The notes below the pieces were generated by a model. It was not told the origin of the DNA. It worked only from the letters and a program-made list of their open reading frames with translations, and did no database searches. A program made the translations under genes and the position numbers. Positions 3,295-27,307 of a DNA stretch of 43,396 nt are shown one piece after another (position 1 is the first letter of the stretch; every line of letters begins with the position of its first letter). The stretch lies in the IMG/VR virus record IMGVR_UViG_3300045988_171811; one strand, 5' to 3'. Source of the DNA: a virus.

Positions 3295-6200
3295 ATGGCC
3301 GGATATGATCTCGGGACCGCATGGATTCAGATCAGCCCGTCCGTGCGAGGCCTCGCCCGAAGCATCAATAGCGAAATCGGCAACGTCGACACCGGGCCGG
3401 CCGAGAGAAAGATCACATCCGGCCTGGGTGGTGCGTTCAAATCGGTAGCGAAAGTCGCCGGCGCCGCACTCGGAGGGCTCGCAATCGGCGGCATCGCCGT
3501 CGCATTCGGCGGCGTCGCAAAAGAAGCATTCAACGCGGCCGACGCCACAATCAAATTCAAACAAACGCTCGCATTCGCCGGTAAAAGCGCGGACGAAATC
3601 AACGCGCTCACAAAAAGCACGCGCTCCTACGCAGACCGCACAATTTACGAGCTCGACGACATTCAATCAATCACCGCACAGCTAGCATCCAACGGCGTAA
3701 AGGGCTACGATAAACTCGCCGAGGCGGCCGGTAACTTGAATGCTGTTGCTGGCGGGAATGCGCAGACGTTCAAAACGGTCGGCCTTGTCATGACGCAGAC
3801 CGCGGGTGCCGGAAAACTTACCACCGAGAACTGGAATCAGCTTTCCGACGCAATTCCTGGCGCATCTGGTAAATTGCAGGAAGCCATGAAAAAGAATGGC
3901 GCCTACACGGGCAATTTCCGGGAAGCCATGGAAAAGGGCGAGATCACCGCCGAGGAATTCAACCAAGCGATTCTCGACCTCGGTATGGAGGACGTGGCCA
4001 TTGAGGCCGCTACATCCACCAAAACCCTGGAAGGTGCCTGGGGGAACTTCAAGGCGACCCTTGTGACCGGGGCGCAGGAAATCGCCGAAAAAGCACTCCC
4101 GTGGATCACCGCATCCCTTGACGCTATGAGCAAAGGGTTCGAGAAAGTATTCAACTGGGTCAGTAACTCGTTCATTCCTAGTATTACGAATGCTTTCAAC
4201 GTTATCCGCAAGGGTGATTTCACGGGCCCGATCTTCTCGTTCGAGGAAGACTCAAGCTTCGTTGATTTTCTTTTCCGCATGCGTGACGCTGCCGCCGCCG
4301 CGGGGGAATGGATTAACAAGACGCTCGTCCCGTCGTTGAAGAATCTTAAAGATTTGCTCATGTCTGGTGATTTCACGGGGACGATTTTCGGATTCGACAA
4401 AGACTCTGGAATCATCTCGTACATCACCAACGTACGCAACAGTTTCGTCGAGCTCGGCAAATTCATTGTTGGGACGCTCGTCCCCGGCATCGCCACGGCG
4501 CTCAGCACCATCGCGAACAGCAGCCTTGTCCAATTCATGGAAAGTCTCACCGTCGCTATTCTCAATAGCAAAGTGGCGGTTTACAGCATTGCGGCTGCGT
4601 TCACGGCATGGAAAGCCGTCATGGTCATGTCCTCAATGCAGCAATGGCTAAATGACATGGAAGGCGTAGCCGGCGTAGCAGGGCGTGTCACCACGGCCAT
4701 TAACGCGATGACCGTGGCGAAGGTCAAAGACGTGGTTGAGACAGCGCAGCTCAACCTCATGTACGCCGGCGAATTCCTGTCGAATATCGCGCGTGCAACG
4801 ACGCAGATCACGATGCAGGCGGTTGCTTGGGGGAGGGCCACGGCAATGATGGTCCTCCACAAAACTGCAACAATCGCTTCAACTGCGGCGCAGTGGGCAT
4901 TCAACGCCGCAATGGACGCCAACCCAATCGGCCTTGTTGTGATCGCTATTGCAGCATTGGTCGCAGCCATTGTGGTGGCATGGCAGAATTCCGAAACATT
5001 CCGCAACGTCGTCATTTCTTGCTGGGAAGCAATCAAAACAGCAGCCGGGGCCGTGGCCGATTGGTTCGCCGCTAACGTATGGCCTCTCATGCAAGTCGCA
5101 TGGGACGGAATCGTGGCAGGCGCCCAGTGGATGTGGGGCGTCATGGTATCCGTCTGGCAAGGAATGCAACCTATTATTCAGGCGGTCATTGATTGGATCG
5201 TCGGTACCGCATGGCCCGCGCTTCAGGCGGCATGGGACGGGATTGTCGCCGGAGCCCAATGGGTATGGAACGGCATCGTCAGCGTCTGGCAGGGAATACA
5301 GCCCGTCATTCAAGCCGTCGTTGATTGGATCGTAAATACTGCGTGGCCCAACCTGCAAGCCGCCTGGGACGGCATTTCCGCGGGCGCAATGATCGTTTGG
5401 AACGGAATGGTCGCAGCCTGGCAGGGGATCAGCGACATAATCCGGCCTGTCGTTGATTGGATTGTCAACGTTGCCGCTTTGTATCTCACTACGGCATGGG
5501 ATGCTATCAGCTGGGGTGTGAGCGCGCTTTGGTCCACGATTCAGTGGGCGTGGGACGCTATTTGGGCGGCAATCATGCCCGTCGCCACACAAATCTACAA
5601 CGACATTTGGCCCATGGTAGTCGGCGCATTTAACGCGATTAAAGACACCGCCAGTATGATGTGGGCCGATATTCAGATCGCATGGACCGCAATTCAAACC
5701 GCAATTCAGCCCGTTGCAGATTGGATTTACAATACAGTTTGGCCTTGGGTCGTTGGCGCGTTCAATGCGATTAAAGACACAGCCGCCAACATGTGGGCCG
5801 ATATTCAGACCGCGTGGACCGCAATTCAAGCGGCAATGCAACCGGTAGTCGAGTGGATCTACTACACAGCATGGCCCTGGGTAGTCGATACATTCAACAC
5901 GATCAAAGATGCAGCGTCTAATCTTTGGGGCACTGTATCGGCGGCGTGGACCTCCATTCAGGCTGCAATGCAGCCCGTAGTCGAATGGATCTACTACACA
6001 GCATGGCCCTGGGTAGTCGATACATTCAATACAATCAAAGACACCGCCTCCGCCCTTTGGGGCACCATATCAGCGGCGTGGAACGGCATTTGGGCCACCA
6101 TTCAGCCCGTCGTTGATTGGATTTACAATATTGCATGGCCGTGGGTGGTCGGAGCATTCAACGCCATTAAAGACACGGCGTCTATTATGTGGGGCTCCCT

Positions 6201-7857
6201 GTCGGCGACATGGAACGGCATCTGGGCCGTCATGCAGCCTGTGGTGAATTGGATTCAAACCTATGCTGCACCCGTTATTAGTGTGGCCTGGGAAATCATC
6301 TCTACGGGTGCGAAAATTCTGGGCGGAATCATCGCGTTCGTATTCGCGTCCATTATCGCCGCGGTCACCATGGGAGTCGCTGTAATTCAGGGTGCAGCCA
6401 CTACGATCAGCGCGGCCTGGAATACTGTTGTTTCGTGGACCAGCTGGCTGAAAAACATGGTCGTCTCCGCGTGGAACATCCTGAAAGGCGAAATCCAAAT
6501 CGTTAAAGATTGGATCGCTAACACGCTTGTTCCCGCAATTACAAGCGCCTGGGACAGGGTCGTGGCTGCCGCCAATACCATGAAAGATGGTGTTAGGACG
6601 GCGTGGGACAAAATCAAAGAAGCCGCCGCCAAACCCGTTAACTTCGTTATCGGCACAGTTTACAATAACGGGCTGCGGAAACTCGTTAACGGAATGATGG
6701 AGAAGCTCTCCCTCGATCTTCGCCTTCCTGAAGCCCCCACGATTGGCGGGTACGCGTCCGGTGGTGTTCTGCCCGGATACTCTCCGGGCCGTGACATTTA
6801 CCATTTCGTATCACCCGACGGTGGCGGCAGGCTCGCGCTTTCCGGTGGAGAAGCAATCATGCGGCCAGAATGGGTGAAGGCCGTAGGCGGGCCCGCGATG
6901 GTGAATGCCATGAACCGTGCCGCAGCACACGGGGACAGGATTCCCGGTGGTGATGCCGGCTATGCTGCATTCGCCCCGGGCGGTATTTGGGACCCTGTCA
7001 AAGAAACGGTTTCAAAGGGCGCGTCCGCTGCCCTTAATTGGATCACCGGCGCGGCCGATGCGGTGTCCTCGATCTTCTCCGACCCGATCGGAGCCGTCGA
7101 GACTGTCATCAAGGCTCCGGTTCACAAACTTCTCGATTCATGGGGTGGCGACGGGGCGAAACCATTCTTCGACGCCGGGAAAGCGGGCGTTGATAAAACC
7201 ATTGACGCGCTCGGCGATTGGATTAAAGATCACATGCCTGTGGTCAGTGGCTTCGGTGGCGGAATCGGTGCTATTGGTGCCGCTGCCGGCGACCTCGTGA
7301 ATACGGCGCGTCGGGCTATCGGTACACCGTATGTTTGGGGCGGTGTCTCCCCGGGCGGGGGGCTCGACTGTTCTGGTCTTGTCTATTGGGCGCTTAACGC
7401 TATGGGTATTCATGTGCCGCGTCTCACGGCGGCCGGATATCAGGCAATGTCATCTCCCGGTAATCCTATGGTTCCCGGTACGCTTCTGTTCTGGGGTTAC
7501 CCGGCTCACCACGTTGCTATTGCCTCCGGTAATGGAATGATGGTCGAGGCGCCGACGTTCGGCATTCCCGTGCGTGAGGTGCCGATTTACGGTGGGCCGT
7601 CTGCGGGGAATCTTCGCTACGACAATGGCGGATTCTTGCAGCCTGGCCTCTCAACAATTGAGAATAAGACTGGCCGTCCGGAGCCTGTTTTCACGTCAGC
7701 CCAGTGGGAGAAAATGGATAAGCTGATCAGCCTCCTGGAGAATCGCGCGCTCGGCCCGGACGTGCTCGAAATTCGAGATGTGGACAACGATCTTGTCGGC
7801 CGCATGCAAGTGGAAGCGACGTCGGCCATAGTAGACTATGACCGAATGAACCGATAA
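3295..7857 (+). CDS. Tape measure protein with a C-terminal NlpC/P60 peptidoglycan endopeptidase domain
   Basis: 1520 aa, the largest ORF, following the G/GT chaperone. RBS ggagagg. Has internal Trp-rich tandem repeats. The C-terminal motif GTPYVWGG...LDCSGLVYWA...HHVAIASGNGMMVEAP (about nt 7300-7610) is canonical NlpC/P60. Confidence 0.9.
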   Translation: MAGYDLGTAWIQISPSVRGLARSINSEIGNVDTGPAERKITSGLGGAFKSVAKVAGAALGGLAIGGIAVAFGGVAKEAFNAADATIKFKQTLAFAGKSADEINALTKSTRSYADRTIYELDDIQSITAQLASNGVKGYDKLAEAAGNLNAVAGGNAQTFKTVGLVMTQTAGAGKLTTENWNQLSDAIPGASGKLQEAMKKNGAYTGNFREAMEKGEITAEEFNQAILDLGMEDVAIEAATSTKTLEGAWGNFKATLVTGAQEIAEKALPWITASLDAMSKGFEKVFNWVSNSFIPSITNAFNVIRKGDFTGPIFSFEEDSSFVDFLFRMRDAAAAAGEWINKTLVPSLKNLKDLLMSGDFTGTIFGFDKDSGIISYITNVRNSFVELGKFIVGTLVPGIATALSTIANSSLVQFMESLTVAILNSKVAVYSIAAAFTAWKAVMVMSSMQQWLNDMEGVAGVAGRVTTAINAMTVAKVKDVVETAQLNLMYAGEFLSNIARATTQITMQAVAWGRATAMMVLHKTATIASTAAQWAFNAAMDANPIGLVVIAIAALVAAIVVAWQNSETFRNVVISCWEAIKTAAGAVADWFAANVWPLMQVAWDGIVAGAQWMWGVMVSVWQGMQPIIQAVIDWIVGTAWPALQAAWDGIVAGAQWVWNGIVSVWQGIQPVIQAVVDWIVNTAWPNLQAAWDGISAGAMIVWNGMVAAWQGISDIIRPVVDWIVNVAALYLTTAWDAISWGVSALWSTIQWAWDAIWAAIMPVATQIYNDIWPMVVGAFNAIKDTASMMWADIQIAWTAIQTAIQPVADWIYNTVWPWVVGAFNAIKDTAANMWADIQTAWTAIQAAMQPVVEWIYYTAWPWVVDTFNTIKDAASNLWGTVSAAWTSIQAAMQPVVEWIYYTAWPWVVDTFNTIKDTASALWGTISAAWNGIWATIQPVVDWIYNIAWPWVVGAFNAIKDTASIMWGSLSATWNGIWAVMQPVVNWIQTYAAPVISVAWEIISTGAKILGGIIAFVFASIIAAVTMGVAVIQGAATTISAAWNTVVSWTSWLKNMVVSAWNILKGEIQIVKDWIANTLVPAITSAWDRVVAAANTMKDGVRTAWDKIKEAAAKPVNFVIGTVYNNGLRKLVNGMMEKLSLDLRLPEAPTIGGYASGGVLPGYSPGRDIYHFVSPDGGGRLALSGGEAIMRPEWVKAVGGPAMVNAMNRAAAHGDRIPGGDAGYAAFAPGGIWDPVKETVSKGASAALNWITGAADAVSSIFSDPIGAVETVIKAPVHKLLDSWGGDGAKPFFDAGKAGVDKTIDALGDWIKDHMPVVSGFGGGIGAIGAAAGDLVNTARRAIGTPYVWGGVSPGGGLDCSGLVYWALNAMGIHVPRLTAAGYQAMSSPGNPMVPGTLLFWGYPAHHVAIASGNGMMVEAPTFGIPVREVPIYGGPSAGNLRYDNGGFLQPGLSTIENKTGRPEPVFTSAQWEKMDKLISLLENRALGPDVLEIRDVDNDLVGRMQVEATSAIVDYDRMNR
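5098..6285 (+). repeat. Nine in-frame tandem repeats of 132 bp (44 aa, Trp-rich) inside the tape measure gene
   Basis: Unit starts at 5098, 5230, 5362, 5494, 5626, 5758, 5890, 6022 and 6154. There are two sub-families, AWDGIVAGAQW... and AFNAIKDTA..W. Units 7 and 8 are nearly identical over about 60 nt. Confidence 0.85.
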
Positions 7858-12840: not shown

Positions 12841-13830
12841 ATGGCAAATATTACTGGGTACACTAAGGCCGGCGTAGACAAGCTGGTCGCCCCCCTGTTC
12901 TCTTCAATCTCGCCTTTCACGGTCGGCGGCCACTATTATTCTCCGGTCACGTATTTCTGGCCCGATTTCTACAATGAAGGCCAGGCCGGGAAGGTGTCAA
13001 AGTGGGCCAAGACATTGGCTTACGGGAATGCTCTCGGCTACGTGATTATGAATCGTTCTACGGGCGATTGGTCCGCCAAGGATAATGATTTTCTCGCGCA
13101 GGCGCAGCGCGCCCAGGCGGCCGGCGCGAAGAGAATTCTTTGGTACATTCCTACCCGCTACGGTGTAGCGTCACTCGCCAAGGATGATGCTGCCAGGAAT
13201 GGTGTGCCGGACCCGGACAAGTTTACGCGCGAATACATTATGCAGCTGTGCGCCAACCTTCGCTCCCAGTACGATGGTCTTTTCCAGGGCGTATTCTTGG
13301 ACGAGGTAATCAACGGCTGGGGCGCCCAGGCGGGACGAGTCGGCTGGTATGGCGACCTCATCGGCGAAATTCGACGCGCCTACGGGAAGAATTTCACAAT
13401 CGCCATAAACCCTGGCAGCAATATTACCGAGGCCGTGTGCGCGCTCGATTTCGACGTGTGCATGAGCTTCGAGGATACTGCCGCCAAGTATTTGACGGAT
13501 GACCCTAATAATCCGATTGCGAATGATGTGATGCGGGCACAGCCTTCCACCAAGTGGTGGCATGTCATTCATGGGGTTACGAAAGAGAATTTCCGGCAGG
13601 TAATCGATCGTGCCGCATCATTTGGTGTTTCGCATTTGTATGTGACCGACGGTGAGCTGGTGCAGGGTGAGGGCGGCCAGTGGGTTCCTGAGAAGAACCC
13701 CTATCAGAATCCTCCGTCTGATTGGATCATGGAACGTGTGATCGCCTGGCATGGCGGCTACCTCGGTCTGGCTGAGCGTGTTGCCGAGTTGGAAGCGAAA
13801 GCGGCTCCGTCTCCGCAACCTGGCGCCTGA
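12841..13830 (+). CDS. Spherulin-4 / GH135-like (Sph3-type) glycoside hydrolase, putative exopolysaccharide depolymerase
   Basis: The motif order fits my recollection of the Spherulation-specific family 4 profile: VIMNRSTGDW, ILWYIPTRYG, GVFLDE (catalytic D-E region), IAINPGS, DVCMSFE. Last gene of the tail module. Confidence 0.55.
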   Translation: MANITGYTKAGVDKLVAPLFSSISPFTVGGHYYSPVTYFWPDFYNEGQAGKVSKWAKTLAYGNALGYVIMNRSTGDWSAKDNDFLAQAQRAQAAGAKRILWYIPTRYGVASLAKDDAARNGVPDPDKFTREYIMQLCANLRSQYDGLFQGVFLDEVINGWGAQAGRVGWYGDLIGEIRRAYGKNFTIAINPGSNITEAVCALDFDVCMSFEDTAAKYLTDDPNNPIANDVMRAQPSTKWWHVIHGVTKENFRQVIDRAASFGVSHLYVTDGELVQGEGGQWVPEKNPYQNPPSDWIMERVIAWHGGYLGLAERVAELEAKAAPSPQPGA

Positions 13831-13831: not shown

Positions 13832-13847
13832 TGTTTCACGTGAAACA
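13832..13847. promoter_or_regulatory. Perfect consensus parS (ParB/Spo0J binding site) TGTTTCACGTGAAACA
   Basis: Exact 16-bp palindrome beginning 2 nt after the stop codon at 13830. The same 16-mer occurs at 21017 and 21041. Confidence 0.8.
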
Positions 13848-13884
13848 TTCCCCCTCACCGCACAAATCGTGGTGAGGGGGAATG
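13846..13884. terminator. Bidirectional terminator hairpin at a convergent junction
   Basis: 14-nt arms cattccccctcacc / ggtgagggggaatg with an 11-nt loop and gttttc downstream. Separates the + tail module from the - accessory block. Confidence 0.7.
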
Positions 13885-13906
13885 TTTTCATGCCCAAAAC
13901 GGGAGA

Positions 13907-14374
13907 CTATAGTCCCAGGCGTTGGTAGTCTCCTCCGTGCTCGCGAGCAATATCGTCCAATACGCCCATGAGATCGGAGCGCGCATCGTCCTGAGCGGTG
14001 ATCGACGGTGAGTTCAGAATCGAATGAATCGTGCTGTTGATCTCTCGGAATTGACGGGCAGCGATTGCGTCACACTCTACGGTAGTCCATTGTCGCGCTA
14101 GATGGCGTGCAAGATTGCATGTGCTCTCGCCGCTTGTTTCATGGTAAACGCCCACAATGCTCAGCGGCCGGCCCCAGATAACCCATTTACTGACAGTGCC
14201 GCCATCGTCGTTTTCTACGGTGACGTCAATTCCAGCGCCCTTATATTGGTAGCGCCACTTCAGACGGGCGACCATGTGCGTTTCGTCAATGTCGCACATG
14301 TCGGGCTTCGGAAGCCATAACTGTGTGAGACTAATCTCGTGCTCGATCTTCAGCATTGGGTTATTCGCTGTCAT
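13907..14374 (-). CDS. Hypothetical protein (accessory block)
   Basis: 155-aa ORF overlapping the upstream gene by 4 nt. No family recognised. Confidence 0.55.
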   Translation of the reverse strand: MTANNPMLKIEHEISLTQLWLPKPDMCDIDETHMVARLKWRYQYKGAGIDVTVENDDGGTVSKWVIWGRPLSIVGVYHETSGESTCNLARHLARQWTTVECDAIAARQFREINSTIHSILNSPSITAQDDARSDLMGVLDDIAREHGGDYQRLGL

Positions 14375-14625
14375 GAGACGCTCCGCAAAAGTATGCTACA
14401 GCGCACTGCAGAATGCTGGGGACCATCGGATTCTCTGTGAGTCCATCCTGTTGACACTCCACGCCTCGTCTTCACGAAAACACCATTATCAGTGACCTCG
14501 ATTTTCCCCGGCGAGCACTCAATGGCAGTGACTCCCGTGTGGTCAGAAATGCGAGGAGGTGGCGTGATATCACGCAATTCTCCAGCAATCGTCAACGCGA
14601 TTTCCCGGCGATCAATCTTGCTCAT
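14371..14625 (-). CDS. Hypothetical protein (accessory block)
   Basis: 84-aa ORF, start-stop coupled to both neighbours. Confidence 0.5.
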   Translation of the reverse strand: MSKIDRREIALTIAGELRDITPPPRISDHTGVTAIECSPGKIEVTDNGVFVKTRRGVSTGWTHRESDGPQHSAVRCSILLRSVS

Positions 14626-15143
14626 TACTCTACCTCCATGGCCGATGGTGTGACACCGATCTGCCCCTGATAATGCGAGCCGAGACCGTTGGTGCCGTAT
14701 GGTGCACTGGCTGGCCTGTCCAGGTCCTCGAAAGCGATCTGCGCGATCCTGTCCCCAGGGTGAAGAATGGCAGATTTAGTGGAGTGCAGGTTAGCGATTT
14801 CCAAGGTCACGTTTCCCTGGAATCCCGGATCAATGTATCCCGCGGACACGTGGACGAGAATTCCGCGGCGCGCCCACGATGACTTGCCTTCGACTCTGGC
14901 CACTAGGTCGGCTGGCACGCTGACTTTCTCCTGCGTGGATGCGAGAATAAACTCACCCGGCAACAGCTCATAACCATTCTTACCGATGGTGACATTCTCG
15001 TCCCCATGACGATAGGCGACGATGTTCTCGTCCAACCGCACCTCTACTGACGCTGGCTGAATAGACAACGGCTTCTGCCAGTCGGAGATGAGTTCGCCCC
15101 AATCGATTCTGCGTCGGAGAGTAAAATCACTCAGCGTAGCCAT
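14625..15143 (-). CDS. dcd: dCTP deaminase family protein (Dcd/dUTPase fold)
   Basis: 172 aa. Motifs GKSSWARRGILVHVSAGYIDPGFQGNVTLEIANL and GDRIAQIAF...YQGQ match the Dcd family signature. Confidence 0.8.
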   Translation of the reverse strand: MATLSDFTLRRRIDWGELISDWQKPLSIQPASVEVRLDENIVAYRHGDENVTIGKNGYELLPGEFILASTQEKVSVPADLVARVEGKSSWARRGILVHVSAGYIDPGFQGNVTLEIANLHSTKSAILHPGDRIAQIAFEDLDRPASAPYGTNGLGSHYQGQIGVTPSAMEVE

Positions 15144-15598
15144 TGCGGTAGTCCCTCGTCTTCGTTTTCCTTGATCACATGGACCGTGTAACCTTTATCA
15201 CGTAGAATTGATTCGGCTTCAAGAGCAAGGGCGGCCTTCCCTCCTGGCATGATTTCCATCGCGTCTTCACTGTGCTCCGAAACTATGATCGCGCAGACGT
15301 ACGCATTGTCGTCTGATGAGTCGTCATAAGTGAGCACATATCTGCCTTTCTCGCGCCAATATGTGCACCTAGTGAAAGTGATTCTCCCTTCCTGCCACGA
15401 ACACAAGGCAAGCGTTACTCCCTGAACAAGTTGCACGGTGTGCATAAGCTCATGGATCGTGGCGGACGGATTGGTAGAATTGCTTTGAATACTGAATTCA
15501 CAGTCAATGGCATGCATGAATGCAGTCGCCACCCACCGCTCACCACATTTCACCAAATCAACTAAAGCAATGTTGACAATATTTTCCATAATGGTCAC
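15131..15598 (-). CDS. Hypothetical protein (accessory block)
   Basis: 155-aa ORF overlapping neighbours on both sides. No family recognised. Confidence 0.5.
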   Translation of the reverse strand: MTIMENIVNIALVDLVKCGERWVATAFMHAIDCEFSIQSNSTNPSATIHELMHTVQLVQGVTLALCSWQEGRITFTRCTYWREKGRYVLTYDDSSDDNAYVCAIIVSEHSEDAMEIMPGGKAALALEAESILRDKGYTVHVIKENEDEGLPQWLR

Positions 15599-16623
15599 TT
15601 CTCTTCTGGAATATAGCCGCTGAGGCGGTCGTGTAAAATGGCGGACGTGAAGTCTGTGAGCCGGTCTCGAATTTCCCCGGCGCGATCCTCTGGGGCGAGC
15701 TGTCTGTTGATAGTGTCCCAGTAGGCATTTCGCAGAATCGCGATCACCGTCTGGCCTCCCCGCTCGGCGACGAGTTCACGCAGATACCACGCCGCCTTTC
15801 CCATGTCAACATTCTCGTCGGCACCATTCTTATGGCCAGCCCTGAAAATATACTTCAGGGCACTGCCAGTCAAATAGTCTTTGTCGCGAATGAAAGTAAT
15901 GGGCTCGGGATCGAGGGCCGTATAGTGTGATGGGTGAGTTATCTCGTTCTCATGTACATTATTCTCGACGCGCCCGCCATTCTTCTCCGTGACACAGAAA
16001 ATGTCATCGCACTTCTTTGTGATATAGATAACGTTGTCGCGGAGAGTCAACTCATAGCACTGCTCATCGAAAGACAAGAACCCTTCTCCGCCCTCTTCAG
16101 TCTCGTACCATATACACCATTCGCCACTAAAATACCTATGCGTCCTCTTGATGGGCGCTTCATGACCGTCGGAGACATGGAGACGAATTGGTCTACCTGC
16201 GAATTTCACCTCGTAGTCGGCGTAAGCCCAATAGGGGCCGGTTTGCTGCCAATACCAGCCATCGCGCTTATGCTCCAAAAAGACGCGATGACGACTCCAG
16301 CATGCTACTCGTCGTTTATTAGCAAGATTGCGGATATGCGCCTCCCAGAACCCATCATGCGGCACCACCTTCAAAACATACTCGTACTCGCCGCTCGGGT
16401 AGAAAATCTTCTCGCACTCATCATCTACAGGTGACACAACATAATCCCCTTTCTCTGTCTGTGTGATCGAATAGTCGCTGTACTTGAAATAGTGTCTTCG
16501 TTCTGCATCACTGCTAATAGAAGCGAAACCAACCCCTCTACTGTCGCCGGTTTGCGATATGATTCTCTCTTTACTACCGTCCGGCAAGTACAGCCAAACC
16601 GTCTTCAAAAACATCATGTCCAT
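15595..16623 (-). CDS. Two-domain protein: unknown aromatic-rich N-terminus plus a DUF3310 (SaV-like) C-terminus
   Basis: The C-terminal sequence HPSHYTALDPEPITFI...LTGSALKYIFRAGHKNG...DMGKAAWYLRELV fits the DUF3310 pattern (HY...KY..R...K......KA..YL). Confidence 0.6.
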   Translation of the reverse strand: MDMMFLKTVWLYLPDGSKERIISQTGDSRGVGFASISSDAERRHYFKYSDYSITQTEKGDYVVSPVDDECEKIFYPSGEYEYVLKVVPHDGFWEAHIRNLANKRRVACWSRHRVFLEHKRDGWYWQQTGPYWAYADYEVKFAGRPIRLHVSDGHEAPIKRTHRYFSGEWCIWYETEEGGEGFLSFDEQCYELTLRDNVIYITKKCDDIFCVTEKNGGRVENNVHENEITHPSHYTALDPEPITFIRDKDYLTGSALKYIFRAGHKNGADENVDMGKAAWYLRELVAERGGQTVIAILRNAYWDTINRQLAPEDRAGEIRDRLTDFTSAILHDRLSGYIPEEK

Positions 16624-16640
16624 GGTCGTTCACGTCATTT

Positions 16641-16970
16641 TCAGTTGCCGAGAGTGCCAACCGTGGCGAAGTAGGCGAAGAATACTTGGAGCCACCAAAA
16701 AGCACGCCACGCCAATGACAGTCCGATAACTCCAACGATGAGGGCGACTGCACCCATTGCCATACCTTCACCCGTGGACCTCGGCCTACGAAGCCACGCC
16801 ATGAAACGATTCGTGGGACGCGGGGGCGCCATCACACTGAGCGGTACAGACAGTGCGGGGGGCGCCGGGGCAGGCCGAGGCGGCGGAGGCGGTGCAGGAG
16901 TAGGTGCGCTATCTGCGGGCGGAGGCGGTGCAGGAGTAGGTGCCGACGGGGCACTCGAAAAAGTAGACAT
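16641..16970 (-). CDS. Proline-rich membrane protein
   Basis: 109 aa. The N-terminus has a repeated SAPTPAPPPP motif encoded by a 26-bp direct repeat. The C-terminus has hydrophobic segments (AVALIVGVIGLSLAW, FFAYFATVG). Confidence 0.5.
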   Translation of the reverse strand: MSTFSSAPSAPTPAPPPPADSAPTPAPPPPPRPAPAPPALSVPLSVMAPPRPTNRFMAWLRRPRSTGEGMAMGAVALIVGVIGLSLAWRAFWWLQVFFAYFATVGTLGN

Positions 16971-16982
16971 AATAGTTGTTTC

Positions 16983-17171
16983 TCACTTTCCGTTCAGTTC
17001 TGCCATGAGATGGTTAGTCCAACCGTCACTGTAATTGAAATTCGTGCGCTTAGTGTGACGTGTGCTCTTGATTCTCTTCGCTCGATTCCTCTTGTGCTCC
17101 TGAAACTCGATCGTCTTGCGACGAACCTCGTCTTCACGTCCGTCCATACGGCGGATTGCTGGGTATTTCAT
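16983..17171 (-). CDS. Small basic hypothetical protein
   Basis: The ORF is open from GTG 17183. ATG 17171 forms an ATGA overlap with the upstream stop, so it is preferred. Lys/Arg-rich. Confidence 0.4.
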   Translation of the reverse strand: MKYPAIRRMDGREDEVRRKTIEFQEHKRNRAKRIKSTRHTKRTNFNYSDGWTNHLMAELNGK

Positions 17172-17563
17172 GATTTGACCCACTCGATCTCGTCGCCGAG
17201 AAGCCCGCGCAGATCATTGATCAAGTTGCGCGCGTTCCCGAGCTCCTCCTCGCTGATATCGAAAACTCGGTAGACATTTTCTTCGGTGCAGATCACGAGG
17301 AAGTGATCGTGTGCGCATTCGGGGATGAAAACGTTGCGGATGTTTCCGATGAGGGCGGGCCGCTGAACGGGAATGGCCTGTACGAGGTCGGCCCCCGTGA
17401 GAATTGCGACAGCAGTCACTCTCTCAACAGGGATACCCCGGAACTCGTTCTCGCCTTTCTCGTATCCCTTTGCGGGGAAGTGAATCTTGGTGCCTTTCAG
17501 GTTGGTGAATACGGCTCCTCCTGTGGTCTTGCATGATCCATATCCGGTGCGACGGCGTACCAT
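17168..17563 (-). CDS. Hypothetical protein
   Basis: The start is set at internal ATG 17563, preceded by gaaagag-N5. The longer ORF to 17632 has a His/Pro-rich, implausible N-terminus. Confidence 0.5.
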   Translation of the reverse strand: MVRRRTGYGSCKTTGGAVFTNLKGTKIHFPAKGYEKGENEFRGIPVERVTAVAILTGADLVQAIPVQRPALIGNIRNVFIPECAHDHFLVICTEENVYRVFDISEEELGNARNLINDLRGLLGDEIEWVKS

Positions 17564-17649
17564 GATAACTCTTTCTTCTAGTGTGTGTGATGATGGTGGG
17601 TGGTGGGTGGCCCCTCGCCCGTGATGGGGCACCCACCGTTATGTGTGTG

Positions 17650-17946
17650 TCAGTGCTCCAGCCACCAATCGGCCAGGTAGGCGATGGTCTCATCGGTCAG
17701 AGCAGAAAGGCCATCGTGGACGAGAATGACTCCGTCAGCATCGTACTGCCAGAGTCCCCAGGAGACGACGTCGTCGCACACGTGGAGTCCGAGCGCCTGC
17801 CCGCCGTGGGTGGTGCCTCGCATGAGGCCGATGGTCTCGCCGGTCTCGTCCACCCAGTAGTCCGTGTCGCCCCACGCGTTGGCGGCAGTGCCGACGGCGT
17901 AGGCGATGCCGGTGTCGGTGGTGATGTTCTCGGTGGTGGTGGTCAT
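17650..17946 (-). CDS. Hypothetical acidic protein, first gene of the leftward accessory operon
   Basis: 98 aa. RBS gagagg-N8-ATG. Faces the divergent intergenic region 17947-18181. Confidence 0.55.
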   Translation of the reverse strand: MTTTTENITTDTGIAYAVGTAANAWGDTDYWVDETGETIGLMRGTTHGGQALGLHVCDDVVSWGLWQYDADGVILVHDGLSALTDETIAYLADWWLEH

Positions 17947-18181: not shown

Positions 18182-19654
18182 ATGAAAGGCGGTGCAAAAT
18201 TGGCAGATTCCGTCACAGAATATGCTGCGTCGGAAATGAAATATTGGTGCACCACAGGCGACTACGGGGGAACTGGTTACGCCCAGGATAACCGTTGGAC
18301 CTGCTACTGGAATAGCAATGATGCCGGCTGGAAAACGGGCCCCGGTGACATGGATTGCAGTAGCGGCGTAGCCGGCGCCTACAATATTGCATTCCATAAC
18401 GTCTGGGGAACCGGCTGGGATGACCCGATCATGTTCCCGCGGACCGGCGAGACATGGACTGAAACCCTAAATTCCTTGGCCGCGAATCGCGGTTTCATGG
18501 ATATTGGGGACACCTGGTATGGGTCCACGCCGTCGGGAGGATTCCAGGTCGGCGACCTGGTCCTGAAAACTACCGGGGACGGTGGCCATGTCGCAATGTG
18601 CGTGCGCGAAAACGATGGTTCATTCAATGCGGGCGACCCGCTCCTCGCTGAGGCGTGGATCAATGAGAGTGGTGAAATCGCGGAAGGGCAGATGGGGGAC
18701 CAGACCGGCCATGAAACTCACATAGTCCGGTACAGTAGTCACCCGATGACTGTCGCGGCCTCGTGGTCCACGTGCATCCGTTTCGGAAAGCGGACCGATG
18801 CTGATAACGGGCACGAGTCTGCCGGATCGTACCGCCTTTCTTCAATTCAAGAGGCCGTTCTCAGGGCCGCCGATGTAGAGAATTGCCCGTGGTGGGCCGC
18901 CCTGGCGTGCCTGTGGATGGAAACCGGCGAACGTGGCGCAAACATTTACGGGCACGACGCCGGCGGTGCCGGCCCGCACGGCGAGGAAGTAACCGAGGAG
19001 AATTTCCGCGAGTTCTTTGCGGCAATTCAGAACGGTGAAAACTCGAATGGCGTGGGGCCGTTGCAGATTACGTATCCGGGTTATTTCTTTGATGATCCGG
19101 ATCGTGAGTGGTGGATGCCGGAGAAGTCGGCTGAGGTCGGCTGCCGTATTCTTCGTGATCTTATTAACGCTGAGGGCGATAGTTATGAAGCGTTGAAGCG
19201 TGTTGGGTCGCGTTATAATTCAGGGAATCCGTATGACGCGTATGAGTCTTATGGGATTCTTTTCAGTAATCGTTGCAAGTCTTGGTATGATTATGGTCGT
19301 CCGTCCGGGGGCGCCGGAGAGGAATTTTGGGATATGAGTGAGGGTGTTGATCTGCTCAGGGAGATTCGCGATCTTTTCCGTAGTGGAAAGGCTGGGGATC
19401 ATTTCGCGGGCGACATGAATTGGTACGCTAAGGCGACCTATGAGGAGGTTAAGTCTATTCACGCGTCTGTGGATCAGATTCTGCATTCTGTGACTCCGGG
19501 TCAGGAGAATGTTCGTGAGGCGGGTGCGATTTATGGTGCTGTGAATGAGATTCGTAAGGCGGTGTCGACGCCGTCGTCTTTGCAGGCGCATGATGGTGTC
19601 GCGGAGTCTCCCGTTCCAGATCCGGAGTCTCCTGCCCCGGAGCAGAATTCCTGA
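18182..19654 (+). CDS. Endolysin with two catalytic domains: N-terminal Cys-His peptidase (NlpC/P60 or CHAP-like) plus an SLT-type lytic transglycosylase
   Basis: The N-terminus has DMDCSSGVAGAY...GDGGHVAMCV. The middle region has WMETGERG ... GVGPLQIT ... SRYNSGNP (the E, GLMQ and AYNxG motifs of the SLT family). The start has no clear RBS. Confidence 0.75.
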   Translation: MKGGAKLADSVTEYAASEMKYWCTTGDYGGTGYAQDNRWTCYWNSNDAGWKTGPGDMDCSSGVAGAYNIAFHNVWGTGWDDPIMFPRTGETWTETLNSLAANRGFMDIGDTWYGSTPSGGFQVGDLVLKTTGDGGHVAMCVRENDGSFNAGDPLLAEAWINESGEIAEGQMGDQTGHETHIVRYSSHPMTVAASWSTCIRFGKRTDADNGHESAGSYRLSSIQEAVLRAADVENCPWWAALACLWMETGERGANIYGHDAGGAGPHGEEVTEENFREFFAAIQNGENSNGVGPLQITYPGYFFDDPDREWWMPEKSAEVGCRILRDLINAEGDSYEALKRVGSRYNSGNPYDAYESYGILFSNRCKSWYDYGRPSGGAGEEFWDMSEGVDLLREIRDLFRSGKAGDHFAGDMNWYAKATYEEVKSIHASVDQILHSVTPGQENVREAGAIYGAVNEIRKAVSTPSSLQAHDGVAESPVPDPESPAPEQNS

Positions 19655-19787
19655 CGCGACATGTTGGTGTTCCATCATGGCTTGTTTGGTTGGCATTATA
19701 GTGGGCGTCGTGCCATGATGGAGGCAACGTACGAGGGGCTTCACTCTCTTCCCCCCTCGTAACCCCCCGGTGCCGTAGGGGTGATCA

Positions 19788-19830
19788 CGATCCCCGAGAA
19801 TAGTCGGTGATTGACTATTCTCGGGGATCG
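19788..19830 (+). terminator. Rho-independent terminator after the endolysin gene
   Basis: Perfect 18-nt arms cgatccccgagaatagtc / gactattctcggggatcg with a 7-nt loop, followed by tgttttat. Confidence 0.75.
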
Positions 19831-20003
19831 TGTTTTATATGTGTGCTATACTTCCCTACGTACCGCTTATTGGTTAATACACAAATATTTTCCTACGCGT
19901 TCCGACGGTGCAACAAGAGAATACTATCGCCCTCACGTTTCCTGCATTCTTCCCTTAGCTGCTTTAGGAGTCGACGTGAGGGCGGTAGTATACAATCCAT
20001 CTA

Positions 20004-20234
20004 ATGAAAGTGAAAATTAGGGTGACTAAGTCGCTTTATGTTGCCGCAATTTTTGCGGCCGTCATGGTGACAGCAAACACGGCGTTCATGGTGTATAATG
20101 ACTTCGCCAAGGGCACCGTAAGCGTGACTCGCGATTCTCTGTGGTGTGTTGGTGCGATTATTCTTTGGGCCACCGTACGCACCGTCCGGTTCATGCGGAC
20201 TATCGGCTACTATCCTGGTTTCCACAGAAAATAA
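20004..20234 (+). CDS. Small membrane protein (moron-like insert in the lysis cassette)
   Basis: 76 aa with two hydrophobic segments (LYVAAIFAAVMVTANTAFMVY, LWCVGAIILWATV). Sits in an AT-rich segment bracketed by strong hairpins. No clear RBS. Confidence 0.45.
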   Translation: MKVKIRVTKSLYVAAIFAAVMVTANTAFMVYNDFAKGTVSVTRDSLWCVGAIILWATVRTVRFMRTIGYYPGFHRK

Positions 20235-20241
20235 CCAAAAC

Positions 20242-20287
20242 ATAACATTCCTGCCTAACAATCATCGTTGTTAGGCAGGAATGTTAT
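20242..20287 (+). terminator. Terminator hairpin after the moron gene
   Basis: Perfect 19-nt arms ataacattcctgcctaaca / tgttaggcaggaatgttat with an 8-nt loop. Confidence 0.7.
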
Positions 20288-20343
20288 ATAATACGTGTTG
20301 GCAACCCTGTAAAAACAATCACGACAAAGAGGACATTAGATAT

Positions 20344-20715
20344 ATGACGGTCCCTGTTATGCACGACGTCCTCTCCGATGCCACCCTAGTCGCCTTGGTC
20401 GCGCTCGCTGGCACAATATTCTCAAATGTGATGGGTCGCAAGAATGCGCGTGACCAGGAACAGATCTCAATCTTGGACATTACTGTCAGGTCTCTTTCTG
20501 AGAGGGTGAGCGCCCTGGAGGGGAGTCTTGCGGCGGCCGAAAGGGCGGCGGATATGGCGGAAGATGGTCGCCGTCGGGCTGAAGTGAAATGGTGGGAGGC
20601 CGTCTCTTTCGCACATACTGTTATCGATTGGGGCAGGTCTCTGAAAATTCTGATACCATCTGATAAAGAGGACTCAATCCCTACTGAGCCTCAAATTCCG
20701 GAATCTATGAGGTGA
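20344..20715 (+). CDS. Membrane-anchored coiled-coil protein (lysis accessory or holin-associated)
   Basis: The start is set at ATG 20344 (RBS aagagga-N10). Has an N-terminal TM segment (ATLVALVALAGTIFSNV) and then a coiled coil (SLSERVSALEGSLAAAERAADMAEDGRRRAE). Confidence 0.5.
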   Translation: MTVPVMHDVLSDATLVALVALAGTIFSNVMGRKNARDQEQISILDITVRSLSERVSALEGSLAAAERAADMAEDGRRRAEVKWWEAVSFAHTVIDWGRSLKILIPSDKEDSIPTEPQIPESMR

Positions 20716-20724
20716 TTCATAAAC

Positions 20725-20958
20725 ATGTTTACTCCTGAGGTCCGCAAGGCCCTTTACGCCCTCCTCACCGCTGTTCTCGGTGTTTTTGCGGCTTTCAATG
20801 TTATTTCTGCGGATCAGGCGTCTCAGTATGCTGACGCTGTTACCCAGATTGTCGGTGCTCTGACTCTGGCGCTGGCTACGTATCACACTCGCCCGGGCGC
20901 GGCCGCTGGCCGTCACGCCGCCGGTGAGGGTGAGGCCGCTGAGGACAAGGTAGCCTGA
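20725..20958 (+). CDS. Holin (two-TM, actinophage type)
   Basis: 77 aa. RBS gaggtga-N9. Has two TM segments (ALYALLTAVLGVFAAFNVI, IVGALTLALATY) and a charged C-terminus. Last gene of the lysis cassette. Confidence 0.65.
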   Translation: MFTPEVRKALYALLTAVLGVFAAFNVISADQASQYADAVTQIVGALTLALATYHTRPGAAAGRHAAGEGEAAEDKVA

Positions 20959-20976
20959 CCTCCGCCTTCCACAGAA

Positions 20977-21018
20977 CATTACTGCCCCCTACCGAACATG
21001 CGATAGGGGGCAGTAATG
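20977..21018. terminator. Bidirectional terminator hairpin at a convergent junction
   Basis: Perfect 15-nt arms cattactgcccccta / tagggggcagtaatg with a 12-nt loop. The right arm overlaps the first parS of the pair by 2 nt. Confidence 0.7.
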
Positions 21019-21032
21019 TTTCACGTGAAACA
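21017..21032. promoter_or_regulatory. Perfect consensus parS TGTTTCACGTGAAACA (copy 2)
   Basis: Exact 16-mer, identical to 13832-13847. Confidence 0.8.
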
Positions 21033-21040
21033 CGGGGGCA

Positions 21041-21056
21041 TGTTTCACGTGAAACA
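21041..21056. promoter_or_regulatory. Perfect consensus parS TGTTTCACGTGAAACA (copy 3)
   Basis: Exact 16-mer, start to start 24 bp from copy 2. Ends 2 nt before the stop codon of the RuvC-like gene. Confidence 0.8.
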
Positions 21057-21057: not shown

Positions 21058-21543
21058 TCACCTCCGTTCCATGTCGCTCCCGACGATGCGGGCGATCACA
21101 TCCTCGTCGTGGCGTTTAGTGACTGCCCACAGGAAGAGATGACGCCCCGCATCACGCACGTCGTCCGCATCGGGCTGGCTCACGTCGGCTCCAGTGGGCC
21201 AAAAACCAAGAGACTTCAAAACATGGTCGGGCATGGTTGTTTTCGCCATTGCGGGAGTCTGCCATACGATATCCCCGATCTCCCATTCCAGCACGGAGTT
21301 GATTTTTACTGGGGTGAGGTCTGCGAGAAAATTGTTGCCCGGTCGAAGATCGAATTGCTCGCACACGACAATGTCTGGGGCGAATTCGTTTCGTGTGGCC
21401 AGAATGTCGTATGCACTGGCGGTCCAATGCTCATACTTGAATTGTTGAACATGAATGATTGAGAATTCGTGGTCGTCGTGGAAGTCTCCGACGACGATTC
21501 CTGTTGATTTGCCGGGATCAACGGCCATCACCCGTTGCATCAT
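21058..21543 (-). CDS. RuvC-like Holliday junction resolvase
   Basis: 161 aa. The N-terminal MAVDPGKSTGIVVG has the first catalytic Asp motif of the RuvC/RNase H fold. ATGA overlap with the upstream gene. Confidence 0.65.
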   Translation of the reverse strand: MMQRVMAVDPGKSTGIVVGDFHDDHEFSIIHVQQFKYEHWTASAYDILATRNEFAPDIVVCEQFDLRPGNNFLADLTPVKINSVLEWEIGDIVWQTPAMAKTTMPDHVLKSLGFWPTGADVSQPDADDVRDAGRHLFLWAVTKRHDEDVIARIVGSDMERR

Positions 21544-22604: not shown

Positions 22605-22693
22605 TTGCGTGTTTCTCTCTCTTCTCCATTGGGTTGAATAGCGGGGGCAACATGATCGTTGCCCCCGCTATTCAAATCATGCGACCGGGTGTG

Positions 22694-23284
22694 TCAGAAA
22701 ACTACTGACCATGAGTTAGAAGTATCCTTTTTGGCCTCGAAATCAATGGAAGAAATCTCAGCCCTTGGAGGCCAGAAAGCGGGCTTCGGCGCGCCGTCCT
22801 CACCGAGGACCGTGACTCCGTTCTCGTCTTGCTCGTATGCGGGGCGACCATAATCGTCCAAACGAGGACGCGGCTTACTCATTCGTGTCACCAATGTTGC
22901 GTGAGCGCCCTCCAGATTCTCGCACACGCGCTTCACGGTAGTGTCAATCTTCTGGGGTGAGAGAAGGTCGGCCCTCTCCCTGGCGTCGGCCGGCCAGAGA
23001 CCGGCGGCACTGAAATACTTCGGAATGTTGAAGTGAATGAAAGTCTTCCCATTCTTGTTGATAGTGAAAACAGTGCGGTCGGTGAGGGCCTTTCCGGCAT
23101 CCTCGTCGTCGCCGTCGATCATCCAATCGGTGACAAGCATTGGCCTGCCGCTCTTGGAGGTGGTCATTTCGGCCTTGGTGATGAACGCGGAGTGCTTTCC
23201 GGGCTTGGGCGGCTCGAAATTGCCGCCGCCGGTGGCGACTTCCAGTGATGAGAGGTCGGTTCCGAAGTTGAAGCCAGTTGCCAT
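22694..23284 (-). CDS. DUF669-like protein (putative ssDNA-binding partner of Sak4)
   Basis: The start is set at ATG 23284 (RBS aggaga-N9). The N-terminus MATGFNFGTDLSSLEV...GNFEPPKPGKH and the position next to the AAA_24 ATPase are typical of DUF669. Confidence 0.5.
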   Translation of the reverse strand: MATGFNFGTDLSSLEVATGGGNFEPPKPGKHSAFITKAEMTTSKSGRPMLVTDWMIDGDDEDAGKALTDRTVFTINKNGKTFIHFNIPKYFSAAGLWPADARERADLLSPQKIDTTVKRVCENLEGAHATLVTRMSKPRPRLDDYGRPAYEQDENGVTVLGEDGAPKPAFWPPRAEISSIDFEAKKDTSNSWSVVF

Positions 23285-23327
23285 AATTATTGTTCTCCTA
23301 TAAGTCGGTGGTAAAGAATTGCGGTGG

Positions 23328-23441: not shown

Positions 23442-23469
23442 AATTGTTTTCTCTCTTCCTGTGTTTTGG

Positions 23470-24210: not shown

Positions 24211-24225
24211 GATATGTTTCACCTC

Positions 24226-25204: not shown

Positions 25205-25249
25205 TAGTATTTTTACTCTCTCTTCCCTGTAGTGTTGATTGGTGGTGTG

Positions 25250-25456: not shown

Positions 25457-25464
25457 AATATTTT

Positions 25465-27298: not shown

Positions 27299-27307
27299 CG
27301 TGTGTGG

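What the first reader, a model, noticed from the sequence alone, without database searches (positions are those of the whole stretch)
13832..13884. Perfect chromosomal-type parS fused to the bidirectional terminator at the tail/accessory junction
TGTTTCACGTGAAACA (13832-13847) is the exact consensus ParB/Spo0J site (tGTTtCACGTGAAACa) used around bacterial origins, including in Actinomycetota. It starts 2 nt after a stop codon and overlaps the left arm of a 14-bp-stem terminator. The same 16-mer occurs twice more, at 21017-21056. Three chance occurrences of one 16-mer in 43 kb are essentially impossible. No phage parA or parB is recognisable. Possible roles:
- hijacking host ParABS for episome segregation or subcellular positioning;
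- loading host ParB-CTP clamps or SMC onto phage DNA;
- titrating ParB to perturb host chromosome segregation.
Basis: partly seen in the sequence, partly recalled or inferred. Interest (0 to 1): 0.85.

Follow-up and report, generated by a model that had tools for sequence, protein, structure and literature searches.

The report
Host-type parS sites on Actinomyces phage
A common, apparently non-integrating phage of an oral Actinomyces carries three perfectly conserved copies of the bacterial chromosome "centromere" (parS) but no partition genes, so it most likely borrows the host ParB protein, as Bacillus phage phi29 is known to do.

Summary
TGTTTCACGTGAAACA occurs exactly three times (13832, 21017, 21041). 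Each copy sits between a stop codon and a strong hairpin, at the only two convergent gene junctions of a circularly assembled 43.3-kb cos siphovirus.

- **Conservation:** in about 60 related metagenomic genomes the 15-bp core never changes. Hairpin loops, the spacer between the tandem copies and codon wobble positions vary freely, and the hairpin stems change by compensatory substitutions. Selection therefore acts on the sequence, which points to a protein-binding site.
- **Gene content:** no ParB, ParA, integrase or repressor was found in the phage.
- **Host:** a chimeric contig joined through a leader-proximal CRISPR spacer links the phage to Actinomyces sp. oral taxon 448, a non-spore-former.
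- **Precedent:** virulent Bacillus phage phi29 carries five host-type parS sites, used through host Spo0J for spore entrapment. One phi29 site has the same layout: stop codon, parS, bidirectional terminator.
- **Wider survey:** tandem perfect parS pairs are common in viral contigs, in phi29-like phages, this clade and other lineages.

Verdict: a real orphan parS set, and a new variant of a known kind. ParB binding and the biological purpose remain untested.

The parts
13832..13847 (.). parS copy 1, a perfect 16-bp palindrome TGTTTCACGTGAAACA. It lies one base after the stop codon of the last tail gene.
   Evidence: The site is present in 61 of 61 related loci: 52 are exact and 9 differ only at the outermost base 1. 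Columns 13833-13848 are invariant in 60 distinct sequences.
13845..13885 (.). Hairpin 1, with arms 13845-13859 and 13871-13885 and an 11-nt loop. It sits at the convergent junction between the tail genes (+) and the accessory block (-), and is a probable bidirectional terminator. Its foot overlaps the last bases of parS 1. For the leftward transcript, the parS half-site supplies the U-rich tail (UGUUUCAC).
   Evidence: -39.8 kcal/mol on the + strand and -37.7 on the - strand, z = -7.0 and -5.4. Compensatory stem changes and a variable loop are seen in relatives. The consensus terminator scan did not flag it.
13884..13899 (.). The position directly right of hairpin 1. Here 3 of 61 relatives (L149, L168, L171) carry a second parS copy, perfect in L149 and L168 and with one mismatch in L171. 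In the window it reads TGTTTTCATGCCCAAA and is not a site.
20975..21020 (.). Hairpin 2, with arms 20975-20994 and 21001-21020. It sits at the convergent junction between the lysis cassette (+) and the replication block (-). The stem runs 4 bp into parS 2.
   Evidence: inverted repeat I18; -50 and -55.8 kcal/mol, z = -8.9 and -9.4. Compensatory changes include covariation of stem base A to G with parS base 1 T to C in L188, L220 and L230.
21017..21032 (.). parS copy 2, perfect.
   Evidence: Of 48 related loci, 44 keep both tandem copies and 4 keep one.
21041..21056 (.). parS copy 3, perfect. It lies 8 nt after copy 2 and one base before the stop codon of the minus-strand gene 21058-21543.
   Evidence: Mean column conservation is 0.995, against 0.67 for the spacer between the copies. 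Start-to-start spacing of the two copies varies from 22 to 26 bp among relatives.
12841..13830 (+). The last gene of the late (structural) operon, a Spherulin4-family protein and probable tail-associated glycanase. Its transcript reads through parS 1 before reaching hairpin 1.
   Evidence: PF12138, E = 2e-14.
13907..14374 (-). The last gene of the leftward accessory block (155 aa). It is an orphan gene restricted to this clade and is unusually variable.
   Evidence: No family hit. There are 579 clusters at 90% identity, 82-89% identical to the query among the 120 best hits listed. The structure model is unusable, with pLDDT 48.
20725..20958 (+). A holin-like gene, the last gene of the lysis cassette (endolysin at 18182-19654).
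21058..21543 (-). The last gene of the leftward replication/recombination operon. It matches phrog_1981 and has a weak RuvC-like hit.

Best explanation
The three 16-mers are nucleation sites for the host's own chromosomal ParB (a CTP-dependent clamp). They are carried by a cos siphovirus of oral Actinomyces that encodes no ParA, ParB or integrase.

Proposed sequence of events:
1. After injection and circularisation, host ParB loads at 13.8 kb and 21.0 kb.
2. ParB spreads over the roughly 7-kb segment between the sites and over its flanks.
3. The cell then treats the phage DNA like an origin-proximal centromere. It is tethered to, or moved with, the host ParB/ParA partition complexes, and may also recruit SMC.

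By analogy with phi29, the likely benefit is that an un-integrated, transcriptionally quiet phage genome is carried and partitioned in cells where lytic growth is stalled, such as slow-growing biofilm cells, rather than being diluted out.

The sites sit at the two convergent junctions, the only places where they disrupt no promoter or coding frame. There the half-site also doubles as the U-rich tail of the hairpin terminators.

**Shown here:**
- identity to the consensus;
- sequence-specific purifying selection;
- absence of phage partition and integration genes;
- the Actinomyces host link;
- the same layout in phi29.

**Inferred:** binding by host ParB (I put this at about 0.85) and the partition or hitch-hiking purpose (about 0.5).
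For: - Exact match to the ParB/Spo0J consensus, three times, which chance does not explain.
- Site 1 is present in 61 of 61 related loci, and the only variation is at the outermost base. The tandem pair is kept in 44 of 48 loci, while its spacer varies in both length and sequence.
- The adjacent hairpins evolve by compensatory changes, but the parS core does not change. Selection is therefore on sequence, not on pairing.
- No ParBc, ParA, integrase, recombinase or repressor family was found in the 150 longest ORFs, in 10 small ORFs or in PHROGs scans.
- The host is identified through a leader-proximal CRISPR spacer. Contig L310 runs cas genes, leader and one type I-E repeat, then is 100% identical to the window from 5898 onward. 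Cas5e, Cas6e and Cas2 are identical to those of Actinomyces sp. oral taxon 448.
- An actinobacterium uses this same 16-bp consensus for ParB, confirmed by ChIP-seq in C. glutamicum (PMC7083940).
- phi29 provides the precedent: five host-type parS sites used through host Spo0J (PMC2731898). Its site at 17243-17258 lies between the gene 16 stop codon and bidirectional terminator TD1.
- Sister phages with about 41% identical tail proteins carry an integrase and a repressor and have no parS. This fits parS being linked to a non-integrating lifestyle.
Against: - No binding data exist.
- The host's own parS sites and parB gene could not be inspected with these tools.
- No lysis-deferral switch analogous to phi29's Spo0A boxes was found.
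- No repressor was identified, so a quiescent or carrier state is hypothetical.
- No close relative appeared in a scan of one genome per GTDB bacterial and archaeal species, so no evidence was found for carriage in sequenced genomes.
- The host does not sporulate, so phi29's specific rationale cannot apply.
- The strict association with terminator hairpins also fits a transcription-related role.
Confidence: 0.5

Rival explanations
1. Transcription insulator. Host ParB bound next to the hairpins acts as a protein roadblock. It reinforces termination at the two convergent junctions, where the hairpins have poor U-tracts, and so prevents head-on read-through between operons. Segregation would play no part.
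For: - All three sites abut the only two convergent-junction hairpins.
- Three relatives have a site on both sides of hairpin 1.
- phi29 has one site directly next to TD1.
- The consensus scan finds no canonical T-run after these hairpins.
Against: - Four of phi29's five sites, and the sites in an unrelated HK97-like lineage (L023: portal and protease genes), lie inside coding regions far from terminators.
- ParB-CTP leaves parS quickly and is a weak obstacle to RNA polymerase (established knowledge of ParB clamps).
- The hairpins are already very stable.
Confidence: 0.12
2. Host takeover by titration. Hundreds of replicating phage copies, each with three sites, soak up host ParB-CTP clamps. 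This disturbs origin segregation, SMC loading or division, to the phage's benefit.
For: The sites are perfect and therefore high-affinity. There are multiple copies per genome, and the phage is abundant in oral metagenomes, with protein clusters of 1000-1700 member sequences.
Against: - No mechanism is known by which loss of ParB would help a phage within one lytic cycle.
- ParB loss in actinobacteria gives segregation defects over generations, not acute effects (established knowledge).
- Three sites are few for a dedicated sink.
Confidence: 0.08
3. The palindrome is the operator of an unrecognised phage-encoded DNA-binding protein, and only coincidentally resembles parS.
For: About 25 phage ORFs have no family assignment. 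The gene next to site 1 (13907-14374) is an orphan whose fold could not be predicted.
Against: - A 16-of-16 match to a universal consensus is unlikely to be coincidence.
- The same exact 16-mer recurs, often in tandem, in unrelated phage lineages, including phi29-likes where Spo0J involvement is established.
- The phage's own operator-like repeats look different: TAGACAGTGTCTA, three copies at 35258-35310.
Confidence: 0.07
4. A purely structural element. The palindromes only extend or duplicate the terminator hairpins in RNA, since the two tandem copies can pair with each other. No protein is involved.
For: The tandem copies fold into a second long hairpin next to hairpin 2. Each site overlaps the foot of a hairpin.
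Against: A structural constraint permits compensatory change, as seen in the neighbouring stems. The parS core, by contrast, is invariant in about 60 genomes. Site 1 is single and its own 6-bp A/U-rich stem is weak.
Confidence: 0.03

Closest known systems
Host-type parS sites of virulent Bacillus phage phi29 and its relatives (Meijer et al. 2005, as summarised in PMC2731898)
   Same: - The phage has no ParA, ParB or integrase.
- It carries several copies of the host chromosomal parS consensus: five in phi29, four of them TGTTTCACGTGGAACA.
- One copy lies between the stop codon of the last late gene and the bidirectional terminator at the convergent junction, as at window site 1.
- Host Spo0J/ParB is the binder, and it is used to move the phage genome with the host chromosome.
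   Different: - The phage type is unrelated: a 19-kb protein-primed podovirus against a 43-kb cos siphovirus.
- The host phylum differs: Bacillota against Actinomycetota.
- The phi29 function is spore entrapment coupled to Spo0A boxes. The host here is a non-spore-forming Actinomyces, and no host-regulator boxes were found.
- The sites here are all perfect, all intergenic and all attached to hairpins.
Phage-encoded ParABS cassettes of plasmid prophages (P1, N15, cluster A mycobacteriophages such as RedRock)
   Same: These are non-integrating phage genomes that rely on a ParB-parS centromere for inheritance. In actinophages the cassette takes the place of the integrase.
   Different: Those phages encode their own ParA and ParB and have their own, non-chromosomal parS repeats next to those genes. 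The window has neither gene, and its sites are the host chromosomal consensus.
Chromosomal parS clusters near oriC in Actinomycetota (for example the ten sites of Corynebacterium glutamicum, PMC7083940)
   Same: The 16-bp consensus is identical, the sites are mostly intergenic, and several sites lie within a few kb to tens of kb of each other.
   Different: The sites here are on a phage genome, not next to parAB or oriC.

Membership tests
Chromosomal-type parS (ParB/Spo0J nucleation site) | A 16-bp palindrome matching tGTTNCACGTGAAACa | tested here: met
   Three exact matches. It has the parS-type bases, not the Noc-type (TATTTCCCGGGAAATA).
Chromosomal-type parS (ParB/Spo0J nucleation site) | Constraint acts on the sequence itself (protein recognition), strongest in the central 14 bp | tested here: met
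   The core is invariant in about 60 genomes. At site 1 all 9 mismatches, and at the tandem pair 5 of the 11 mismatches, are at the outermost base. The neighbouring stems, loops and spacers vary.
Chromosomal-type parS (ParB/Spo0J nucleation site) | Bound by the ParB of the cell it resides in | not testable with these tools
   This needs EMSA or ChIP-seq with Actinomyces sp. HMT-448 ParB.
Chromosomal-type parS (ParB/Spo0J nucleation site) | The host encodes ParB and uses the same motif on its chromosome | not tested
The only support is by analogy: C. glutamicum uses this consensus, and ParABS is near-universal in Actinomycetota (established knowledge).
phi29-type orphan parS on a virulent phage (host ParB hijack) | Multiple host-consensus parS sites on the phage genome | tested here: met
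   Three sites in the window, and three or four in relatives.
phi29-type orphan parS on a virulent phage (host ParB hijack) | No phage-encoded ParA or ParB | tested here: met
   No such family in Pfam on the 150 longest ORFs plus small ORFs, or in PHROGs on 20 ORFs. A very divergent binder cannot be excluded.
phi29-type orphan parS on a virulent phage (host ParB hijack) | No integration or lysogeny module | tested here: met
   No integrase, recombinase or repressor family was found. Sister phages do have them and lack parS. Many early ORFs remain unassigned.
phi29-type orphan parS on a virulent phage (host ParB hijack) | Spore-forming host, with host-regulator (Spo0A) boxes that suspend the lytic cycle so the genome is trapped in the spore | tested here: not met
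   The host was identified as Actinomyces sp. oral taxon 448, a non-spore-former by established knowledge. A scan for actinobacterial LexA boxes gave nothing above chance. No other host-regulator motif was identified.
Plasmid-prophage ParABS cassette (P1, N15, RedRock type) | Phage parA and parB genes adjacent to their own parS repeats | tested here: not met
   The genes flanking the sites are a Spherulin4-like tail protein, a 155-aa orphan, a holin-like protein and a RuvC-like protein. There is no ParA or ParB anywhere.
Intrinsic bidirectional terminator | A stable G+C-rich hairpin at a convergent junction, flanked by an A-tract and a U-tract | tested here: inconclusive
   The hairpins are very stable and covary. 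The U-tracts are weak (UGUUUUC, and UGUUUCAC supplied by parS), and the consensus scan did not call them.

The most novel reading that the evidence does not exclude
Orphan host-consensus parS sites may be a widespread, convergently evolved phage strategy, not a phi29 peculiarity.

- 55 are phi29-like;
- 26 belong to this Actinomyces phage clade;
- 38 belong to other lineages, including HK97-like siphoviruses with sites inside the portal and protease genes.

No strong ParB-family hit appeared among the ORFs of at least 130 aa nearest the sites (up to four per contig, all within 3.5 kb).

In non-sporulating hosts such as oral Actinomyces, this would define a ParB-tethered carrier state. A formally virulent phage would ride the host's segregation machinery through periods when lysis is not productive.
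Probability: 0.35. Interest if true: 0.8.

Novelty: new variant of a known kind. Interest (0 to 1): 0.6.

Why it matters
If host ParB does load on this phage, use of the host segregation machinery by virulent phages extends beyond the single textbook case, phi29 and spores. It would reach a different phage family, a different bacterial phylum and a host that does not sporulate. The purpose would then have to be something other than spore entrapment, most plausibly persistence of un-integrated genomes in slow-growing oral biofilm cells.

This gives a concrete, mutable handle (three 16-mers) for testing how abundant 'lytic' oral phages persist for months in individuals.

The recurrence of the stop-codon/parS/bidirectional-terminator layout in two unrelated phages also suggests a positional rule for where ParB loading sites can function on compact, densely transcribed genomes.

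Tried and rejected
1. **Nearest cultured phages.** Megablast of 12-23 kb against cultured phage genomes found no match. By terminase, the nearest cultured phages are only about 50% identical: Arthrobacter, Rothia and Propionibacterium phages.
2. **Host from endolysin or tail protein.** Homologues gave no named host. There was only a 61% identical prophage in A. israelii and unnamed metagenome proteins. Those more distant phages have no parS in the parts of their genomes that were retrieved.
3. **Prevotella label.** One RefSeq protein identical in family is labelled Prevotella denticola, on a 13.8-kb contig. I treated this as contamination or mis-binning, because the CRISPR link and all phage relatives point to Actinomycetota.
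4. **DnaA-box cluster.** Seven TGTGGAWAA boxes at 37492-37619 look like DnaA boxes. That would have suggested mimicry of an oriC region. However, eight to eleven independent contigs start at or within about 10 nt of window 37474. The boxes therefore lie 18-145 nt inside a cos end, just upstream of the terminase gene, and are more likely terminase-binding (cosB-like) repeats.
5. **LexA-box scan.** Nothing above chance.
6. **Structure of the orphan gene next to site 1.** The model has pLDDT 48, so it is unusable and no fold search was run.
7. **Literature.** Searches found no report of native orphan parS in phages other than the phi29 family. Livny et al. 2007 is not held.
8. **tRNA scan.** None found.

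Full report
**Observation**

The 16-mer TGTTTCACGTGAAACA occurs exactly at 13832-13847, 21017-21032 and 21041-21056. Even with up to three mismatches these are the only hits. Dinucleotide shuffles give a mean of 0.35 hits and never three.

Site 1 starts one base after the TGA of gene 12841-13830. Its last bases form the foot of a hairpin with arms 13845-13859 and 13871-13885. Sites 2 and 3 follow a second hairpin (20975-20994 and 21001-21020) whose stem runs four bases into site 2. Site 3 ends one base before the stop codon of the minus-strand gene 21058-21543.

Both hairpins are far more stable than shuffled controls, at -38 to -56 kcal/mol with z from -5.4 to -9.4. The simple terminator scan did not call them, because the loops are long and the T-runs weak.

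**Genome context**

The window is a circular assembly of a 43,341-bp phage; bases 1-55 repeat at 43342-43396. A gene map of 63 ORFs with family scans gives this layout:
- terminase, portal, capsid and tail genes on the plus strand (37632 through the end of the window to 13830);
- a leftward accessory block (13907-17946: dCTP deaminase, DUF3310/nucleotide-kinase-like);
- a rightward lysis cassette (18182-20958);
- a long leftward replication/recombination and early block (21058-35061: RuvC-like, DUF669, AAA_24, exonuclease, SNF2 helicase, primase-helicase DUF3987);
- an HNH endonuclease gene upstream of the terminase gene.

The parS sites occupy the only two convergent junctions. Eight to eleven independent metagenomic contigs begin at or within about 10 nt of window 37474. 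This indicates a cos end there and places the sites at about 45% and 62% of the linear map.

No ParB, ParA, integrase, recombinase or repressor family was found among the 150 longest ORFs, ten small ORFs, or in two PHROGs scans.

**Conservation**

About 60 close relatives (42-43 kb contigs, mostly human oral metagenomes) were retrieved through two flanking proteins.
- Site 1 is present in 61 of 61 loci. Of these, 52 are exact, and the nine variants differ only at the outermost base 1.
- The tandem pair is present in 44 of 48 loci and a single copy in the other four. Start-to-start spacing is 22-26 bp, and the spacers differ in sequence.
- Column conservation is 1.0 across 13833-13848 and 0.995 for site 3. 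It is about 0.7 for the hairpin loops and for the spacer between the copies.
- The hairpin stems change by compensatory substitutions. One example links a stem base to the first base of parS.
- L149, L168 and L171 carry a second copy directly right of hairpin 1; it is perfect in the first two and has one mismatch in L171.

This is the pattern expected for a protein-recognition sequence, not for a purely structural element.

More distant phages that share the endolysin or tail protein show no parS in the parts of their genomes that were retrieved. Two sister phages with about 41% identical tail proteins carry a tyrosine integrase and an HTH repressor and have no parS.

**Host**

One ENA contig of 53,984 nt (L310) runs as follows: type I-E cas genes, a short leader, one CRISPR repeat (GTGTAAACCCCGCGCGAGCGGGGATGATCC), then 100% identity to the window from 5898 onward, inside the tape-measure gene.
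- The bases before the protospacer in the phage are AAC, and the C coincides with the last repeat base, as happens with type I-E PAMs. This last point is inference.
- The simplest reading is an assembly chimera through a leader-proximal spacer acquired from this phage.
- Cas5e, Cas6e and Cas2 are identical to proteins of Actinomyces sp. oral taxon 448. This species belongs to the Actinomycetaceae, which by established knowledge are non-spore-forming.
- The cas segment has 67% G+C, against 55% for the phage.
- The window proteins equal those of the metagenome-derived 'Siphoviridae sp. ctio73'.

**What is known**

The library holds no report of native orphan parS in phages other than the phi29 family. 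[quoted passage not shown]

I scanned phi29 itself (NC_011048). It has four sites reading TGTTTCACGTGGAACA and one weaker site. The site at 17243-17258 lies immediately after the stop codon of gene 16 (17242) and four bases before the annotated bidirectional terminator TD1. This is the same layout as window site 1, in an unrelated phage.

C. glutamicum, an actinobacterium, uses ten copies of this 16-bp consensus, confirmed by ParB ChIP-seq (PMC7083940).

**Wider survey**

The exact 16-mer occurs in at least 120 IMG/VR contigs, and tandem exact pairs occur in at least 119. Of the 119 tandem-pair contigs:
- 55 have phi29-type proteins;
- 26 belong to the window's clade;
- 38 are other lineages, with 33-73% G+C.

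In the 'other' group I scanned the ORFs of at least 130 aa nearest the sites, up to four per contig and all within 3.5 kb. They are mostly portal, prohead protease and capsid genes, and one contig has a Microviridae capsid. No ParB family appears among the 25 listed families of 33 (likewise). In the HK97-like contig L023 the sites lie inside the portal and protease genes.

**Interpretation**

I consider it very likely (about 0.85) that these are binding sites for host ParB. The purpose is inferred. The best-supported model, by analogy with phi29, is hitch-hiking of a non-integrated phage genome on the host ParABS machinery. Since the host does not sporulate, this would serve carriage in stalled or slow-growing cells (about 0.5).

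The tight association with convergent-junction hairpins, also seen in phi29, keeps open a transcription-insulator role (about 0.12). Titration of ParB, an unrecognised phage binder and a purely structural role are less likely.

The placement may simply reflect that convergent junctions are the only neutral intergenic space. There the half-site TGTTTC can also double as the U-rich tail of the terminator.

**Verdict**

It is not categorically new, because phi29 set the precedent. It is a new variant in phage type, host phylum and host biology, and it appears to be part of a broader, little-described pattern.

Noticed in passing
window 37492-37619 (and 36990-37470): Seven same-orientation TGTGGAWAA boxes lie within 130 bp, in pairs 12 nt apart. 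They are the reverse complement of the DnaA-box consensus TTWTCCACA, and two are perfect TTATCCACA. The window has 9 such boxes against 0.59 expected. Eight to eleven independent contigs start at or within about 10 nt of 37474, so the boxes sit just inside a cos end upstream of the terminase gene. They are more likely terminase-binding repeats than an origin. The region to their left (36990-37470) is A-rich and of low complexity, with strong AT and GC skew.
   Followed up: partly
window 35258-35310: Three 13-bp palindromic boxes TAGACAGTGTCTA lie 20 bp apart in the divergent intergenic region between the leftward early block and the rightward HNH/terminase block (0.44 expected by chance). They look like the operator set of a phage regulator, but no repressor gene was identified.
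   Followed up: partly
L310 1-3057 joined to window 5898 onward: This metagenome contig is a chimera between an Actinomyces sp. oral taxon 448 type I-E CRISPR-Cas locus and the phage. The join runs through the leader-proximal spacer, which matches the 132-nt repeat region of the tape-measure gene, and the flanking bases fit an AAC PAM. This is direct evidence of recent spacer acquisition against the phage.
   Followed up: yes
window 13907-14374 (minus strand): The 155-aa orphan gene next to site 1 is unusually diverse within the clade. It forms 579 clusters at 90% identity, and the 120 best hits listed are 82-89% identical to the window copy. Neighbouring proteins are 93-98% identical. It could be a diversifying host-interaction or anti-defence gene. 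The fold prediction failed, with pLDDT 48.
   Followed up: partly
L023, L319, L320, L339, L344, L361, L395 (HMP and oral viral contigs, G+C about 0.53): This is a second, unrelated HK97-like siphovirus lineage. It has four perfect parS sites, some inside the portal and prohead-protease genes, and no ParB family among the ORFs scanned around the sites.
   Followed up: partly
L021, L061, L073 (viral contigs, G+C about 0.50-0.54): These contigs have clusters of three to five perfect parS sites within about 0.7-0.9 kb. In L021 and L061 the cluster lies in mostly non-coding DNA next to a large terminase gene. L073's flanking genes were not examined.
   Followed up: no
L312 (phi29) 17243-17258: One phi29 parS site sits between the gene 16 stop codon and bidirectional terminator TD1, the same layout as window site 1. 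I did not find this positional parallel discussed in the papers read.
   Followed up: yes
window 19786-19832 and 20242-20287: Two perfect 20-bp-stem hairpins lie inside the lysis cassette. One is followed by TTTTATATGT, after the endolysin gene.
   Followed up: no
window 5059-6252: The tape-measure gene contains eight tandem 132-nt (44-aa) repeats. The CRISPR protospacer lies within them.
   Followed up: no
L244, L245: These sister phages share the tail module (about 41% identity) but have 62-69% G+C. They carry a tyrosine integrase, an HTH repressor and Bro/ANT genes, and have no parS. The window's clade looks like a non-integrating offshoot of a temperate group.
   Followed up: partly
protein cluster of window 12841-13830: One member of this protein cluster (same 90%-identity cluster as the window protein) is deposited in RefSeq as Prevotella denticola (WP_455087043.1), on a 13.8-kb contig. 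This is probably contamination or mis-binning of this Actinomyces phage.
   Followed up: no
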